Shown here in pieces: positions 17,183 to 23,723 of a DNA stretch of 49,686 bases (position 1 is its first letter; each line of letters starts with the position of its first letter). The stretch comes from an uncultured Ruminococcus sp. Its GTDB lineage: Bacteria; Bacillota; Clostridia; Oscillospirales; Ruminococcaceae. The DNA lies in NCBI GenBank assembly GCA_937894495.1, contig CALCRR010000155.1:1-49686 (forward strand), written 5' to 3'. The notes below the pieces were generated by a model. The model was not told the DNA's origin, did no database searches, and saw nothing but the letters and a program-made list of their open reading frames with translations. A program made the position numbers and the translations under genes.

Positions 17183-20098
17183 TTATAACTCAACTCCAAT
17201 GCTGCGGAGCTTTTCTGTTCTTTCGGCAGACAATTTGCCGTTGGAATACAGCCTTTTCTGCCCTGACACCCAAATCGCTAACGGTTTTTCGCTATCCATG
17301 CTTCTGGGCAGTCTGCCGCAGTTCTCAATAAAGTTTTTTAACGCTTCATATTTATCCGACCACCCTCTGTCACCGTGAATAAGACATTTTATGTCAATGC
17401 CTAAGCTGTTGATTTTTCTAAGCTTATCATCGGAAAGTTCTCCCTTCCGCATGAGCTTGTACTGCCTTATGACCCAATATCGGAGATATGCACCTTCTTC
17501 GGTCGTATAATCCTCTGGGATTATTTTGCTTCCAAATTCGGATATATATTTTTTAAGTTCTTCAAATCCGATATTCCATGCTTCTTCTCTTGTTGTGGCT
17601 TTTGAGCCTTTGAAACTTGCAGTTATACCGTATTTTTCAAGCATCACTTTATGTTCTTCGGTTATCGGGCAATTCTTTCTTCTTAACAATCGTCTTTGCC
17701 TTTCGACCCAATCCCCGAGCTTGAAGCCGTCATCACAAATATAAGTACCGGTGAAGTCAGTATTTCCGTGTTCTCTCACATAATTCTCCAAGTGTCCGAA
17801 AGCAGTATCCCACAATTCGTCGGAATATGTTTCCCACCGCATTCCGAGAGAATCGAGCTGCCTAATCTTATCTTCAGACAGATTACCCTCCCTGCGGTCA
17901 CGCCTTTGCTTAGTGAGCCAAGCGCAGAGCTTTCTGCCCTGAGCAGTCTTGTAGTCCTGCGGAACATTCAAGTCTCCGTTTTCTTCAAGATATTTCTTTG
18001 CTTCATCGAACATCTGCTGCCACAGATCTTTCGTAGGCTTCCAAAGCATACCAATCTCTTCAAGCCGTTTTATGTACTCATCGCAAAGCGTTCCTTTTTT
18101 ATTCTGCCTGCGCTTTTGTTCAAGCCAGTAACCAAGCCTAAAACCATCATCGGTGATATATGTGATTGGCGGATTCAGATTTCCGTTTTGATGATAATAC
18201 CGCACCGCATATTTATAGCCGTGTTCAAATTTATACTCCATCGTATTCCAGACCATGCCTATGCGGTCAAGACGGGCGATTTGCTCATCTGTCAGCTCGT
18301 CTTTTTTCTGCCGCAGATGTGTGATCCAATAACCAAGTTTCAGACCAGACGGTGTGATATATTTATAATCCATATACAGACTGCCATGTTCGTTGAAATA
18401 CTCCATAGCTTCAAGGTAGTTTTTCTCCCACTGATCAGACAGCGGATTCCACACCATACCGATACTGTCGAGCAATTTTTTCTTTTCGGGTGTCACCACA
18501 GTATAACGCTTGTTTGCATATGCACTCCGCATACGCTGTAACCAAATACTGAGTTTCAGACCGTCAACAATATATCCTCTCGGCACATTAAGATCGCCGT
18601 TTTGCTCATAGTATTCTTTGGCTTTCTCAAAGTATCTGTTCCATATATAATCGAGGTGGCTGTCCCATACAACACCGATAGCTTCCAGCTTGTCGATCTG
18701 CACTTGTGTCAGCGGCTTATCGGTCTTGTCTGCATAGGCCAAACGCTGAATGGTCAGCCATCGCCCGAGAGCATACCCTTCTTCTGTATGGTAATTCGCC
18801 GGAATTATCAGATCACCGTTCTGCTCATAATATTCCTTTGCCTTTTCATACATAATATCCCATGAAGCGGAAAGCACTCCCTCCAGCTCATCAAACAGCT
18901 TGCGGCAGTCTCTTACTTCGTCAAGAACTTCAAAATGGTCGTTCACGATAACACGGCTATCTCCGGTATAGCGGTAATAGGTGATCGCTGCCTGCATTTC
19001 TTCTTTTATAGTGTCTATACTGTAAAGATTTTCGATATTATTTACAATGTCGAATATGACGGCATTTGTGGATTTGCTTGCACTCAGCGCACGACCTATC
19101 TGCTGCTTGTAGATTATGGGAGATACCGTAGGACGGAGCAGAATTACACCAGAAATGTCCTCAACGTGTACACCCTCGTTGAGCATATCAATGCAGTAAA
19201 GCAGTTTCAAATGCTCCGATCTGTCAGCTTTAAATTCAGCAAACGCCTTACTTGTTTCGGGATCATTGGAATATGCCTTGTAAATGTGCGGTTTGCAGTC
19301 TATCTTAGCAAACCAGCTATCAGCTTCCACAACAGCAATACTCATTGTTTCAAGACTGCTGCAAAAGACGATATATTTGCCCGATCTATTCTCAATGTGT
19401 TTATTAAAGATCACATCAAGTCCGTCAGCATTTTCCAAAGTGCGCCGAAGTGCTTCAAGATATTTCGTTGCTTCGTCACGAACTGCTTTGCTTTTTGCTC
19501 CAGCTATCTTTGTTTCATATTTTTCAAGCTCTTTCTGATACGAATAGACTGTCAGAACGTATTTCGGCGGATTTAATATTCCCCTTACGATAGCTTCGCC
19601 AAGTGTCATTTCACTTGCAACATTGCCGTCAAACAACTCGTCTGTCATATCACGCTGATTGTCAAGATAGCGTATTGCAGTTGCAGACAAACCGAGGACA
19701 GGCACATCGGGATATGCTTTCAGGACAGCATCAACTCCGGCTCCCCAAAGCTCCGCACCGCACCTATGAAACTCATCGAGAATTATGTAATCAGGCTGGA
19801 TCTCCGCTATTTCGTCCTTTGTTACGTTCATCAGTTTTGCATAGGTGTAAAATTTCACGTTCTCCGGCTGATAGCCGTCAGAAGTCTCGGCAAGATTTTC
19901 AAGCTGTGTCTGATAGATATATTTTGACGGAGAGAGCCAGCATATCGTTTTATCGGGATTGTCCTCGCAAAGCTTGAAACCTATGAAACTCTTGCCCGTG
20001 CCGGTAGGGTGGATCACGGCAGCCTTGCCGCGCTCGGAGAGCATTGTTACAGCGGCATCATACGCTGTCTTGTTATGCTCAAATAATTGCATTGCCAT
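17183..20098 (-). CDS. SF2 helicase with 8 C-terminal helicase-associated (HA) repeats
   Basis: PTGTGKS, DEFH, SAT, QQIGR; repeats W...Y..A..YY...G.L..P......G..L..W...QR.....L....I..L..IG..W; GAGGTG RBS before ATG 20098. Confidence 0.9.
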   Translation of the reverse strand: MAMQLFEHNKTAYDAAVTMLSERGKAAVIHPTGTGKSFIGFKLCEDNPDKTICWLSPSKYIYQTQLENLAETSDGYQPENVKFYTYAKLMNVTKDEIAEIQPDYIILDEFHRCGAELWGAGVDAVLKAYPDVPVLGLSATAIRYLDNQRDMTDELFDGNVASEMTLGEAIVRGILNPPKYVLTVYSYQKELEKYETKIAGAKSKAVRDEATKYLEALRRTLENADGLDVIFNKHIENRSGKYIVFCSSLETMSIAVVEADSWFAKIDCKPHIYKAYSNDPETSKAFAEFKADRSEHLKLLYCIDMLNEGVHVEDISGVILLRPTVSPIIYKQQIGRALSASKSTNAVIFDIVNNIENLYSIDTIKEEMQAAITYYRYTGDSRVIVNDHFEVLDEVRDCRKLFDELEGVLSASWDIMYEKAKEYYEQNGDLIIPANYHTEEGYALGRWLTIQRLAYADKTDKPLTQVQIDKLEAIGVVWDSHLDYIWNRYFEKAKEYYEQNGDLNVPRGYIVDGLKLSIWLQRMRSAYANKRYTVVTPEKKKLLDSIGMVWNPLSDQWEKNYLEAMEYFNEHGSLYMDYKYITPSGLKLGYWITHLRQKKDELTDEQIARLDRIGMVWNTMEYKFEHGYKYAVRYYHQNGNLNPPITYITDDGFRLGYWLEQKRRQNKKGTLCDEYIKRLEEIGMLWKPTKDLWQQMFDEAKKYLEENGDLNVPQDYKTAQGRKLCAWLTKQRRDRREGNLSEDKIRQLDSLGMRWETYSDELWDTAFGHLENYVREHGNTDFTGTYICDDGFKLGDWVERQRRLLRRKNCPITEEHKVMLEKYGITASFKGSKATTREEAWNIGFEELKKYISEFGSKIIPEDYTTEEGAYLRYWVIRQYKLMRKGELSDDKLRKINSLGIDIKCLIHGDRGWSDKYEALKNFIENCGRLPRSMDSEKPLAIWVSGQKRLYSNGKLSAERTEKLRSIGVEL

Positions 20099-20120
20099 GT
20101 GATCCACCTCTTTTACAGTT

Positions 20121-23100: not shown

Positions 23101-23723
23101 TCTCTTGTAGCCTTGTTTTTTGCGGAGCGTACACGCTTTTCGTATTTCTCCAAATCTTGCTGATACGAAAATATCGAGAGAATATACTTGGGCGGAGCAA
23201 GTATTCCACGGACGATTGCTTCGCCGAGGGTCATTTCACTTGCGACATTGCCGTCAAACAACTCGTCCGTCATATCACGCTGGTTATCGAGGTAACGAAT
23301 AGCTGTTGCAGACAGACCGAGAACAGGTACATCGGGATACGCTTTCAGGACAGCATCTACGCCTGCGCCCCAAAGCTCTGCGCCGCACCTGTGAAATTCA
23401 TCGAGTATTATGTAATCGGGTTTGATTTCGGCAATTTCGTCCTCTGTTACGTTCATCAGCTTGGCGTATGTATAGAACTTGACATTTTCCGGCTGATAAC
23501 CGTCAGAAGTCTCGGCAAGGTTTTCAAGCTGGGTCTGATAAATGTATCGTGAGGGTGAGAGCCAGCAGATAGTCTTGTCGGGATTGTCCTCACATAGCTT
23601 GAAGCCGATGAATGATTTGCCTGTTCCTGTGGGGTGGATCACGGCAGCTTTGCGGCGCTCGGAGAGCATACGGACGGTTGCTTCATATGCTGTTTTGTTA
23701 TGCTCAAATAGGTTCATTGCCAT
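20121..23723 (-). CDS. SF2 helicase with 11 C-terminal HA repeats (paralog of downstream gene)
   Basis: Same helicase motifs; 11 HA-type repeats counted by eye; GAGGTG RBS before ATG 23723. Confidence 0.9.
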   Translation of the reverse strand: MAMNLFEHNKTAYEATVRMLSERRKAAVIHPTGTGKSFIGFKLCEDNPDKTICWLSPSRYIYQTQLENLAETSDGYQPENVKFYTYAKLMNVTEDEIAEIKPDYIILDEFHRCGAELWGAGVDAVLKAYPDVPVLGLSATAIRYLDNQRDMTDELFDGNVASEMTLGEAIVRGILAPPKYILSIFSYQQDLEKYEKRVRSAKNKATRDAAEKVLEALRRALDKAENLDVLFDKHIEDRAGKYIVFCANLEHMQDMMEKAKEWFRKVDKKPHIYSVYSDDPTASKSFADFKADSEPKHLKLLYCIDALNEGVHVPDVSGVILLRPTISPIIYKQQIGRALSASKSCNPVIFDIVNNIENLYSIDAIEEEMQVAIQYYRSHGGEGFVVNETFELVDKVADCKSLFDELEGTLSASWDLMYEQAKKYYEQYGDIEVPKRYFTPEGYSLGLWLLTQRRVYKGDVNGNLTQVQIDKLNSLGMRWESVKDVAWERYYTAAKRYYDEHGDLLTPAAYVDSEGVTLGRWLSQLRVYKSSGIKSNYLTDERVKALEEIGMVWAVLDYLWEENYAAAVRYHREHGDLNMPYNYVDSSGIRLGQWLNHLRSSRLGKGKARKELTDDQIARLDALGMIWETKYEKQWNDAFQALCDYYQKNGTFEMPAAYKTETGIQLGRWIRRQRDFYEQGRISEEHIAKLREIGFTLEKSDPWEEKYQLAKAYFEEHGNLNVPAKYVVNGVWLSKWLNEQKLIAEGKRKKQLTTEQLAKLEAIGFRYGTSLYEEQWNERFEMAKAYFEEHGDLNIPKNYTVGDFQLGIWLRQQKAQYRDGNMSADHKERLTAVGMDWDNAFEKRVKNSYVQGFQHLEEFIAENGVEAVNGEVVCEDGYKLGRWVANCKMKYRKRKLPKKHTEHFEKLGVRLEKSDAWEERYREAKKYLDDNNITYFPQGTLSESGYDLYSWVSDQRKADRNGTLSEDRKKKLLAIGYPFLQDRSTKREKRKPKWFDKANTVLEYVQSHDPDDLTDDTEYKGIRIMYWIKNQHSRLNAGSITDTEQTELIQQILQLSLYVKRSHWDKMYEAAAQYYSEHGEITNIPDDHEAPDGNLKAWIKNETKIVKGFVKTKRTPEQLEKLAKIGISQDMKSPAERQWDSQFERVKVFVADKGRLPFYSARRKDEFPMAVWINNQKNKAKQNILTDEQIKRLREVGVAI

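What the first reader, a model, noticed from the sequence alone, without database searches (positions are those of the whole stretch)
17183..23723. Tandem SF2 helicases with near-identical motor N-termini but different HA-repeat arrays (8 vs 11 repeats)
Seen: two adjacent co-oriented paralogs 22 nt apart. The first ~175 aa differ at only 8 positions by my count, the second RecA-like domain is moderately diverged, and the HA arrays are strongly diverged in sequence and number. Residues around the conserved W...QR helix vary in every repeat. No nuclease, methylase or specificity subunit is attached. Established: HA (PF03457) domains are small helical, presumed nucleic-acid-binding modules of poorly known function. 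Inference: a modular reader array coupled to a translocase, duplicated to widen target range or to act as a heterodimer; possibly anti-phage/anti-plasmid or involved in ICE transfer.
Basis: partly seen in the sequence, partly recalled or inferred. Interest (0 to 1): 0.72.

Follow-up and report, generated by a model that had tools for sequence, protein, structure and literature searches.

The report
Paired helicases capping a surface-sugar gene cluster
Two neighbouring helicase genes with long tails of small DNA-binding repeats belong to a large, little-studied family that in gut and rumen Clostridia sits at the edge of surface-polysaccharide gene clusters, which hints at a role in controlling those clusters.

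Summary
Two co-oriented genes lie on the minus strand, 22 nt apart: helB (20121-23723, 1200 aa) and helA (17183-20098, 971 aa). Each has an intact SF2 motor followed by HA repeats, 11 in helB and 8 in helA. Residues 1-175 differ at 8 positions.

The cause is not recent duplication or gene conversion. Synonymous sites are saturated (dS about 1.4, dN/dS about 0.03), so these are old paralogs under strong purifying selection.

The pair is not isolated. This Ruminococcus assembly holds 10 motor matches and 71 HA matches on 12 contigs, always beside polysaccharide-synthesis genes. R. albus 7 has the same arrangement: polysaccharide locus, nucleotidyltransferase, then two HA helicases.

In other Clostridia the single helicase is the first gene behind a recombinase, and often behind long inverted repeats that look like an invertible promoter. 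A polysaccharide operon follows it. This scan noted such helicase-led operons in two other genomes.

No nuclease, methylase or defence partner was found.

Best reading (about 0.4, inferred): DNA translocases addressed by their repeat arrays that help control polysaccharide loci. Its defence/ICE reading is not supported.

The parts
20121..23723 (-). helB: upstream gene, 1200 aa, SF2 motor plus 11 HA repeats
   Evidence: An ortholog 97% identical was found in another assembly (P0003). It is 76% identical over all 1200 aa to an R. albus 8 gene.
22524..23723 (-). helB motor (residues 1-400): RecA1, helical insert, RecA2. Motifs PTGTGKS (31-37), DEFH (108-111), QQIGR (332-336).
20127..22484 (-). 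helB HA array, 11 repeats (residues 414-1199). Repeat 9 is degenerate.
20099..20120 (-). 22-nt spacer with a Shine-Dalgarno-like GAGGTGGA before the helA start
17183..20098 (-). helA: downstream gene, 971 aa, SF2 motor plus 8 HA repeats
   Evidence: Model of residues 1-620: pLDDT 84.5.
18899..20098 (-). helA motor (residues 1-400). Nearest solved folds: Type ISP LlaBIII, RadD, XPB, SauUSI.
17189..18862 (-). helA HA array, 8 repeats (residues 413-970)
23743..23776 (-). Short hairpin followed by a U-run, between the nucleotidyltransferase gene and helB. Possibly a weak terminator or attenuator. Its folding energy is not distinct from shuffles.
   Evidence: z -0.64
23777..24886 (-). NTP_transf_5 (PF14907) gene directly upstream. 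At all 5 places where this family occurs in the genome, a helicase or a helicase remnant follows.
25121..45565 (-). Polysaccharide-synthesis locus on the same strand: DegT, Bac_transf, PglD, GT4, Glyphos_transf, Wzy, rmlACBD, GalE-like, GT2, DUF4422, flippase
46200..47279 (+). Tyrosine recombinase, divergent from the head of the polysaccharide locus. The 634-nt gap 45566-46199 holds only weak inverted repeats.

Best explanation
SHOWN. helB and helA are two old paralogs of a large family of SF2 helicases. The motor is closest to dsDNA translocases such as Type ISP enzymes, RadD, XPB and SauUSI. Each carries a C-terminal array of HA domains. Each HA domain is a three-helix module of about 65 aa.

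The family is tied to polysaccharide (PS) biosynthesis loci, on the same strand. In most Clostridia sampled there is one helicase at the head of the operon, behind a site-specific recombinase. It is often also behind long inverted repeats that look like an invertible promoter. In Lachnospiraceae it sits in front of a NusG-like gene.

In the Ruminococcus clade the helicase, or a tandem of helicases, follows the last PS gene (an NTP_transf_5 gene). In this genome it also precedes the next PS locus on three contigs.

Repeat order is fixed. Each repeat position keeps its own identity between species.

INFERRED. The HA array is a nucleic-acid address: the second helix and its loop are basic in 18 of 19 repeats. 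It places the ATP-driven translocase on particular DNA at or near PS loci, where it modulates their transcription by pushing, stalling or clearing RNA polymerase or bound proteins. On this reading, a cell with many PS loci carries one motor per locus with a common engine and a locus-specific address, and the tandem pair supplies two addresses at one junction.
For: Identity and age:
- Pfam, conserved motifs and repeat counts.
- Synonymous sites are saturated in all 21 paralog pairs compared. For helA/helB codons 1-175, pS is 0.63, pN 0.036 and dN/dS 0.027.

Family in this genome:
- 71 HA matches on 12 contigs and 10 motor matches.

Context in this genome:
- Every copy with readable flanks adjoins PS genes.
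- After the last PS gene on 6 contigs: C155, C103, C167, C389, C363, C259.
- Before Bac_transf/DegT on 3 contigs: C245, C18, C220.
- 6 of the 8 Bac_transf-bearing contigs also carry HA matches.

Other genomes:
- A recombinase lies directly upstream in 28 of 44 loci with a testable upstream gene (23 tyrosine, 5 serine).
- A PS or NusG-like gene is among the first two downstream genes in 48 of 59 loci.
- In 16 of those 28 loci the recombinase-helicase gap holds inverted repeats with 18-30 nt arms and 92-350 nt spacers.
- R. albus 7 pRUMAL01 carries PS locus, nucleotidyltransferase, then two HA helicases of 1197 and 990 aa.

Array:
- helB repeats against their R. albus 8 counterparts are 54-85% identical on the diagonal and 13-45% off it.

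Motor fold:
- The model of residues 1-620 has pLDDT 84.5 and pTM 0.61.
- Foldseek best hits are LlaBIII 1e-13, RadD 6.7e-13, XPB in TFIIH 3.5e-12 and SauUSI 3.6e-11. Sequence hits are 7clg and 3h1t.

HA domain:
- The profile hits the solved HA domain 2kta at 3.8e-8.
- Charge pattern of the repeats.

Expression:
- An RNA-library run holds 6 contig pieces on helA and 2 on helB. This is only a weak hint of expression.
Against: - No experiment on any family member was found in the literature searches.
- The function rests on gene neighbourhood and fold alone.
- In this window the pair lies at the tail of the PS locus, not the head. What follows (genes of 143, 174, 1038 and 198 aa, then IS66) is not recognisably PS-related.
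- No inverton-like repeat was found in the window with the search that found them elsewhere.
- No NusG paralog exists in this genome.
- The helB ortholog in R. albus 8 follows different PS genes, so an address tied to the upstream cluster's chemistry is unlikely.
- The loci are related to one another and were picked by similarity, so 28/44 and 48/59 are not independent counts.
- My gene calls are a simple longest-ORF procedure.
- Sequence-specific binding by HA is unproven. The homeodomain resemblance is not significant (E 0.47).
- The arrangement of the whole array could not be modelled (pTM 0.30).
Confidence: 0.4

Rival explanations
1. Helper of DNA rearrangement at polysaccharide loci. The array binds the switch region or the locus borders. 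The motor aids synapsis, supercoiling or strand exchange, either for promoter inversion or for replacing whole loci by recombination.
For: A recombinase lies directly upstream in 28 of 44 loci, and inverton-like repeats lie in 16 of those 28. A tyrosine recombinase sits at the head of this window's locus. Helicase genes lie at the borders between chained, strain-variable PS loci. RadD and XPB, the nearest folds, work on DNA repair and opening.
Against: The Ruminococcus-clade helicases, including this pair and that of R. albus 7, have no adjacent recombinase or inverted repeats. As I recall, known invertases of this kind need no helicase. The paralogs' DNA is too diverged at synonymous sites to serve as recombination homology arms.
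Confidence: 0.18
2. General genome-maintenance helicase that merely travels with long, highly expressed, horizontally mobile PS operons, for example to clear R-loops or transcription-replication conflicts. The HA arrays act as non-specific DNA clamps or protein-binding scaffolds.
For: The motor is highly conserved across families: 58-70% identity between Clostridia families. Distribution is patchy: 11 of 399 Clostridia genomes at E<=1e-60, and 2 of 18 congeners. The array as a whole has a near-neutral to mildly basic pI of 8.0-8.5.
Against: Each repeat position keeps its own sequence identity between species. One distinct array per locus occurs in multi-locus genomes: L062/L080/L093, L063/L073 and L059/L098 each come from one genome. 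These patterns fit specific roles better than a generic clamp.
Confidence: 0.15
3. Nuclease-less anti-phage or anti-plasmid module. The arrays sense foreign or modified DNA and the motor acts as effector or signal.
For: The helicase core resembles those of PbeA, type IV SauUSI-like and type I/ISP restriction enzymes. HA domains are fused to PLD nucleases in a defence survey (figure legend seen). Distribution is patchy. IS and mobile-element genes lie nearby.
Against: No nuclease, methylase, specificity or other effector domain was found in either protein or next to them. PADLOC matches cover only the core, for example PbeA model positions 343-631 of 672. NCBIfam scores of 24-43 bits compare with cut-offs of 550-729. 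The conserved neighbours are PS genes in this genome, in R. albus 7 and in 48 of 59 other loci.
Confidence: 0.12

Closest known systems
HA-domain helicase of Bacteroides vulgatus (BVU_0683; NMR structure 2KTA of one HA domain)
   Same: Same Pfam domain. A profile of the 19 repeats hits 2kta_A at E 3.8e-8. Title of Mills 2013, as cited in PMC12191111: 'indicates domain binding to DNA'.
   Different: Only one isolated domain was solved and no function is known. Here there are arrays of 8 and 11 repeats with fixed order. The paper itself is not held, so I saw its title only.
dsDNA-translocase SF2 motors: Type ISP LlaBIII (4xqk), RadD (8h5y), XPB (7egb), SauUSI (7clg), type I HsdR (3h1t)
   Same: Nearest folds and sequences of the motor. 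Motifs I, II and VI are present.
   Different: No nuclease, methylase, zinc-finger or target-recognition domains of those enzymes. TM-scores are only about 0.4 because just the roughly 400-aa motor aligns. NCBIfam scores are far below family cut-offs.
Bacteroides capsular-polysaccharide control: invertible promoters, UpxY (NusG-like) and UpxZ at the head of each locus (recalled; UpxY enrichment near invertons seen in passages of PMC11892184)
   Same: The logic of position. Relatives of these helicases are the first gene behind an inverton-like element and a recombinase. In Lachnospiraceae they sit beside a NusG-like gene, at the head of each of several PS loci in one genome.
   Different: An unrelated protein: an ATP-driven helicase with a repeat array, not a NusG paralog or a small inhibitor. 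In this window the genes are at the tail of the locus and no inverton was found.
Clostridia 'inverton group 139' linked to tyrosine 'invertase group 35' (Microbiome 2025, PMC11892184; passages read)
   Same: Probably the same kind of recombinase-plus-inverted-repeat cassette that precedes the helicase in 16 of 28 loci.
   Different: I did not match sequences to that catalogue. The paper's main text never mentions a helicase (0 occurrences).
Modular repeat readers (TALE, PUF, PPR; recalled)
   Same: Tandem helical modules with a conserved scaffold and variable surface positions.
   Different: No repeat-to-base code is known for HA. Repeats here are 13-49% identical to one another, far more diverged than TALE repeats.

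Membership tests
SF2 helicase (ResIII/DEAD + Helicase_C) | Pfam domains above curated cut-offs | tested here: met
   ResIII 42.5 and 43.8 bits (cut-off 22.5). Helicase_C 34.6 and 36.2 bits (cut-off 23.5). DEAD 35.0 and 32.4 bits (cut-off 26).
SF2 helicase (ResIII/DEAD + Helicase_C) | Motifs I (GxGKS/T), II (DExH) and VI (QxxGR) intact | tested here: met
   PTGTGKS at 31-37, DEFH at 108-111, QQIGR at 332-336 in both proteins. Most of these residues are invariant in 69 sequences (G33, K36, D108, E109, H111, Q332, Q333, G335, R336); S37 and F110 are only nearly invariant, 90% or more.
SF2 helicase (ResIII/DEAD + Helicase_C) | ATP-dependent translocation or unwinding | not testable with these tools
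   Needs an ATPase/translocase assay.
HA (PF03457) repeat proteins | HA domain matches above the cut-off, in tandem | tested here: met
   408 bits with 8 stretches and 504 bits with 10 stretches, against a cut-off of 28.4. A local profile gives 8 and 11 repeats. Hits solved HA domain 2kta at 3.8e-8.
HA (PF03457) repeat proteins | Nucleic-acid binding by the domain | not testable with these tools
   Only the charge pattern and the title of Mills 2013.
Type IV restriction enzyme (SauUSI-like) / PbeA defence helicase | Nuclease domain and target-recognition domain on the same protein; full-length model match | tested here: not met
   No nuclease family in Pfam. PADLOC matches only the helicase core: PbeA model positions 343-631 of 672, mREase_IV 320-557 of 945.
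Type I / Type III restriction R subunit | Adjacent methylase and specificity genes; family score above cut-off | tested here: not met
   No such neighbours. NCBIfam EcoAI 35.6 bits against 550, PRK11448 23.5 and 33.3 bits against 729.
RadD | NCBIfam equivalog score above cut-off | tested here: not met
   26.6 and 35.8 bits against a cut-off of 720. The fold of the motor is similar.
Head-of-operon regulators of phase-variable polysaccharide loci (works-like comparison with UpxY/UpxZ) | First gene behind an invertible promoter of a polysaccharide operon | tested here: inconclusive
   Met by position for relatives: 16 of 28 recombinase-adjacent loci and 48 of 59 loci with PS or NusG genes downstream. 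Not met for this window: tail position, and no inverton-like repeat. Flipping was not tested here.
Head-of-operon regulators of phase-variable polysaccharide loci (works-like comparison with UpxY/UpxZ) | NusG-like fold (UpxY) | tested here: not met
   No NusG/KOW domain in helA or helB. The genome has a single NusG match, on another contig.

The most novel reading that the evidence does not exclude
HA arrays are programmable DNA readers, each repeat contacting a few base pairs. Clostridia use them to give every polysaccharide locus its own addressed ATP-driven motor. Together these motors form a cross-regulatory network that decides which surface glycan is made. It would be a functional counterpart of the Bacteroides UpxY/UpxZ system, built from entirely different parts. 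The expansion to ten or more copies, with tandem pairs, in rumen Ruminococcus would be its most elaborate form.
Probability: 0.2. Interest if true: 0.85.

Novelty: new variant of a known kind. Interest (0 to 1): 0.55.

Why it matters
HA-domain helicases are annotated by the thousand. More than 5000 relatives appeared in one capped search. None of my five literature searches found an assigned function.

A consistent, strand-matched link to polysaccharide loci gives the family a testable biological setting. In many Clostridia the link is to the first position behind a recombinase-controlled switch.

Surface glycans govern phage susceptibility, immune recognition and fibre adhesion in gut and rumen bacteria. 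How Firmicutes choose among several glycan loci is largely unknown. An array-addressed translocase would be a new kind of regulator and possibly a new modular DNA-reading scaffold.

For the finding as given, the main correction is this: the 'near-identical N-termini' show constraint on an old gene family, not a recent event.

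Tried and rejected
Gene conversion or recent duplication as the cause of the identical N-termini. Rejected, because synonymous sites are saturated.

Inverton in this window. The same repeat search that found 18-30 nt arms elsewhere gave only four 15-nt pairs here. None lies in the 45566-46199 gap or next to the helicases.

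Promoter and terminator scans of 16000-25200. Counts equal the shuffled expectation. The hairpin before helB is not distinct from shuffles.

Tandem DNA repeats as possible array targets. Nothing notable.

Full-length helA model. pLDDT 65.4 and pTM 0.30, so the shape of the array is unreliable. Foldseek and VIA searches with it matched only the RecA1 domain generically.

HA versus homeodomain. E 0.47, not significant.

Downstream 1038-aa protein. Only weak SMC/LmuB-like hits, and only unnamed clusters in the Atlas.

NTP_transf_5 against solved structures. No hit.

Complex prediction of a Lachnospiraceae helicase (alignment A5) with its NusG-like neighbour (A6). The queue was full and then the tool was declared unavailable. 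Nothing was folded.

Heterodimer of helA and helB. Not tested.

Sequencing runs. All DNA holders share under half of the sampled words. Chimeric joints between paralogs in DNA contigs look like assembly effects of a repeated family. I draw no habitat conclusion from them.

The careful tree search did not finish. The tree cited is the quick one.

Full report
WHAT IS THERE

Two long ORFs lie head to tail on the minus strand.
- From their in-frame ATG starts, helB is 20121-23723 (1200 aa) and helA is 17183-20098 (971 aa).
- A 22-nt spacer separates them. It carries a Shine-Dalgarno-like GAGGTGGA, and the same motif precedes helB.
- Pfam places ResIII/DEAD and Helicase_C in residues 1-340 of both proteins.
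- Pfam finds HA (PF03457) 8 times in helA and 10 times in helB, all far above the cut-offs.
- A profile trained on the two proteins finds 8 and 11 repeats. Repeat 9 of helB is degenerate.
- Motifs I (PTGTGKS), II (DEFH) and VI (QQIGR) are intact in both. Most of their residues are invariant in a 69-sequence alignment of relatives, and S37 and F110 are nearly invariant.
- The two proteins are 54% identical overall. Residues 1-175 differ at 8 positions.

WHY THE N-TERMINI ARE ALIKE

- The DNA encoding residues 1-175 differs at 88 of 525 positions. In 70 codons the difference is synonymous only.
- Nei-Gojobori estimates for this region give pS 0.63, pN 0.036 and dN/dS about 0.03. In codons 176-364 the synonymous sites are saturated (pS 0.79) and pN is 0.22.
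- All 21 pairs among seven copies in this genome behave the same way.
- The tandem pair of R. albus 7 shows the same pattern: 94% identity in the first 175 aa and 75% in residues 176-364.

The near-identity therefore reflects strong purifying selection on old paralogs. It does not come from recent duplication or gene conversion.

Family-wide, the whole motor is conserved. Mean column entropy is 0.85 bits for residues 1-175, 1.08 for 176-295 and 0.49 for 296-364, over 82 sequences. The variable part is the helical insert and the start of RecA2.

A LARGE FAMILY IN THIS GENOME

The window is contig C155 of a 443-contig assembly.
- The assembly holds 71 HA matches on 12 contigs and 10 motor matches.
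- These include a full-length 1200-aa copy (C103) and a run of three genes in tandem (C416).
- Some copies are truncated: C363 starts at residue 174, and C416c has no HA array. Many fragments lie at contig ends.
- Named relatives in the protein database are 'Helicase associated domain protein' of Ruminococcus albus, R. flavefaciens and Ruminococcus sp..
- In a quick maximum-likelihood tree all copies from this genome fall in one Ruminococcus clade (SH-aLRT 99). helA groups with C389 and C416b. helB groups with C103, C167, C416c and genes of R. albus 8 and other Ruminococcus (the careful search did not finish).

CONTEXT

In the window:
- The pair follows a 20-kb polysaccharide (PS) locus on the same strand. 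The locus runs DegT, Bac_transf, PglD, glycosyltransferases, Wzy, rmlACBD, flippase.
- The last gene of the locus is an NTP_transf_5 gene, at 23777-24886.
- A tyrosine recombinase lies divergently at the head of the locus.
- Downstream of the pair come four genes of unknown family and an IS66 element.

Elsewhere in the genome:
- Every helicase copy with readable flanks adjoins PS genes.
- On six contigs it follows them. On four of these an NTP_transf_5 gene lies directly upstream.
- On three contigs the C-terminal end of a helicase is followed by DegT/Bac_transf on the same strand.
- Contig C220 shows a whole unit: helicase, Bac_transf and further genes, then an NTP_transf_5 fragment at the contig end.
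- All five places with an NTP_transf_5 match are followed by a helicase or a helicase remnant.
- Six of the eight Bac_transf-bearing contigs also carry HA matches.

The simplest picture is a set of chained PS loci with helicase genes at the junctions. The assembly cannot prove this.

OTHER GENOMES

Loci fetched:
- A pattern scan of one genome per species found 555 stretches encoding relatives. The best 79 loci were kept.
- I called genes with a simple longest-ORF procedure and ran Pfam on 143 flanking genes.
- The loci are related to one another and were chosen by similarity, so the counts below are descriptive, not independent.

Outside the closest Ruminococcus relatives the picture is uniform:
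- A site-specific recombinase lies directly upstream in 28 of 44 loci with a testable upstream gene (23 Phage_integrase, 5 Resolvase).
- A gap of 200-600 nt follows, then the helicase.
- In ten Lachnospiraceae/Dorea loci a NusG-like gene comes next.
- Then come DegT, PglD, Bac_transf or Polysacc_synt_2.
- A PS or NusG-like gene is among the first two downstream genes in 48 of 59 loci.
- Six of the 11 exceptions belong to the Ruminococcus clade.
- In 16 of the 28 recombinase-adjacent loci the gap holds inverted repeats with arms of 18-30 nt and spacers of 92-350 nt. This is the anatomy of an invertible promoter. I did not test flipping.

Earlier notes of this scan:
- Two notes on other genomes describe such switches in front of a 'helicase-led' glycan operon. 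One reports both orientations in public assemblies.
- I did not verify those notes.

The nine Ruminococcus-clade loci:
- The helicase comes after PS genes in eight. The ninth has no upstream DNA.
- On the complete megaplasmid pRUMAL01 of R. albus 7, a 25-kb PS locus ends with a nucleotidyltransferase gene and two tandem HA-helicase genes of 1197 and 990 aa, 16 nt apart.

Tandems elsewhere:
- Two helicases in tandem occur in L029, L032, L045, L065 and L074.
- A helicase followed by a motor-less HA-only ORF occurs in L022 and L030 (R. albus 8).
- The partners are not a fixed orthologous duo. helB is 76% identical to the downstream R. albus 7 gene and 56% to the upstream one. helA is about 53% identical to both.

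Distribution is patchy:
- 2 of 18 other genomes of the genus, and 0 of 12 genomes from other families of the order, match at E<=1e-30.
- 11 of 399 Clostridia genomes (this one included) match at E<=1e-60.

THE ARRAYS

- Repeat numbers in 78 relatives range from 2 to 11.
- Within a protein the repeats are 11-49% identical.
- Each of the 11 helB repeats is most similar to the repeat at the same position in the R. albus 8 ortholog: 54-85% on the diagonal against 13-45% off it.
- The same holds, more weakly, against paralog C103.

The arrays are therefore not homogenised or shuffled. Order and identity of the repeats are conserved. This fits a fixed composite binding surface.

- Across 523 repeats the invariant or nearly invariant positions are two Trp, several Gly and Leu, and a Gln-Arg pair at the end of the second helix. 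Positions between them are highly variable.
- In 18 of 19 repeats the second helix plus the following loop is net positive.
- The first helix is net negative in 15 of 19 repeats.
- A profile of the 19 repeats hits the only solved HA domain, 2kta, at E 3.8e-8. I saw the title of its paper ('indicates domain binding to DNA') only as a citation. The paper itself is not held.
- HA is also reported fused to TniQ target selectors of Tn7-like elements and to PLD nucleases (legends seen).

THE MOTOR

- A model of helA 1-620 built on 69 sequences is confident (pLDDT 84.5, pTM 0.61).
- Its nearest solved folds are the Type ISP enzyme LlaBIII (1e-13), RadD (6.7e-13, TM about 0.4), XPB in TFIIH (3.5e-12) and SauUSI (3.6e-11). 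RIG-I-like and DEAH helicases follow.
- Sequence searches agree: 7clg and 3h1t, and the PbeA, type IV and type I cores in PADLOC.
- All NCBIfam scores are far below family cut-offs. PADLOC gives no cut-offs.
- Neither protein has a nuclease or any other extra domain.
- The full-length model was poor (pTM 0.30), so I make no claim about the shape of the array.

EXPRESSION

One RNA-library run holds eight contigs on the region. Six pieces lie on helA and two on helB, and 6 of the 8 are at least 99% alike. The tool warns that this does not show transcription. I count it as a weak hint. A DNA contig from another run spans all of helA and the junction with helB.

INTERPRETATION

Shown:
- Two old, intact paralogs of a PS-locus-associated family of HA-array helicases.
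- A motor of the dsDNA-translocase type.
- Arrays with position-specific repeats.

Inferred:
- The array addresses the motor to particular DNA at PS loci, and the motor modulates their transcription.
- Position argues for this. The helicase is the first gene behind a switch, beside a NusG-like factor, with one per locus in multi-locus genomes.
- Position is the only argument. In this window the pair sits at the tail of a locus with no switch in sight, and the genome has no NusG paralog.
- I put this reading at about 0.4.

Rivals:
- Helper of DNA rearrangement at these loci: 0.18.
- General maintenance helicase that travels with PS operons: 0.15.

LITERATURE AND NOVELTY

Five full-text searches found no paper that links HA helicases to polysaccharide loci or assigns them a function. 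The inverton catalogue that describes a Clostridia inverton group tied to tyrosine recombinases never mentions a helicase in its main text. I did not look at supplements. Subscription journals are not covered.

The gene family itself is known and widely annotated. What appears undescribed:
- Its systematic place at PS loci.
- The Ruminococcus variant: tail position, coupling to NTP_transf_5, tandem pairs, and about ten copies per genome.

The earlier scan notes had already seen the helicase-led operons in other genomes.

Noticed in passing
window 9195-11706: Complete-looking IS66 element on the minus strand: TnpA-like 11332-11706, TnpB 10982-11338, transposase 9195-10829. It lies where gene orientation and GC skew switch, and it may have displaced whatever originally followed the helicase pair.
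   Followed up: partly
window 1-9100: Block of plus-strand genes with slightly higher GC (0.44-0.50). It includes a ParB_N protein (5410-6333), a 519-aa ResIII helicase that scores best on RadD and type I R models (6347-7906), and several ORFs with no family. It looks like part of a mobile element.
   Followed up: no
window 47475-49208: A 577-aa ORF with only the C-terminal half of an SNF2-like helicase. Best NCBIfam models are a PLD anti-phage protein, DISARM DrmD and a pilus-regulating Snf2, all far below cut-off. It lies beside the tyrosine recombinase at the head of the polysaccharide locus.
   Followed up: partly
window 12477-15593: A 1038-aa protein with no Pfam family. It has only weak SMC/LmuB-like hits near residues 630-690 and 886-987, and only unnamed Bacillota clusters in the protein atlas.
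   Followed up: partly
window 24000-29000 and 37000-40000: GC drops to 0.29-0.35 over the flippase, DUF4422, GT2, Wzy and GT1 genes, against 0.41-0.46 around them. This is typical of the serotype-specific, horizontally exchanged core of a polysaccharide locus.
   Followed up: no
own genome contigs C416 (L013), C363 (L015), C170: Decaying family members. C416 has three helicase genes in tandem, the third cut to 499 aa without HA repeats. The C363 copy starts at residue 174, directly after a GT1 gene. C170 has a split NTP_transf_5 followed by a remnant of the helicase N-terminus (matching residues 1-53 to 1-71, depending on the search).
   Followed up: partly
L030 13810-15720 (R. albus 8), L022 12280-13870, L029 5370-6920: ORFs made only of HA repeats (558-642 aa, no motor) lie next to full helicases. 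They could be array-only partners or competitors.
   Followed up: partly
loci L034, L047, L051, L056, L060, L061, L062, L066, L069, L070, L071, L082, L084, L090, L092, L099: Long inverted repeats (18-30 nt arms, 92-350 nt apart), many internally palindromic, lie between a recombinase gene and the helicase start. They are candidate invertible promoters of helicase-led polysaccharide operons.
   Followed up: partly
L059, L062, L063, L073, L080, L081, L088, L091, L093, L100: A NusG-like gene (174-231 aa) directly follows the helicase in Lachnospiraceae/Dorea loci. In several loci a conserved protein of about 276 aa with no family follows that. Together they form a compact putative regulatory head of the operon.
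   Followed up: partly
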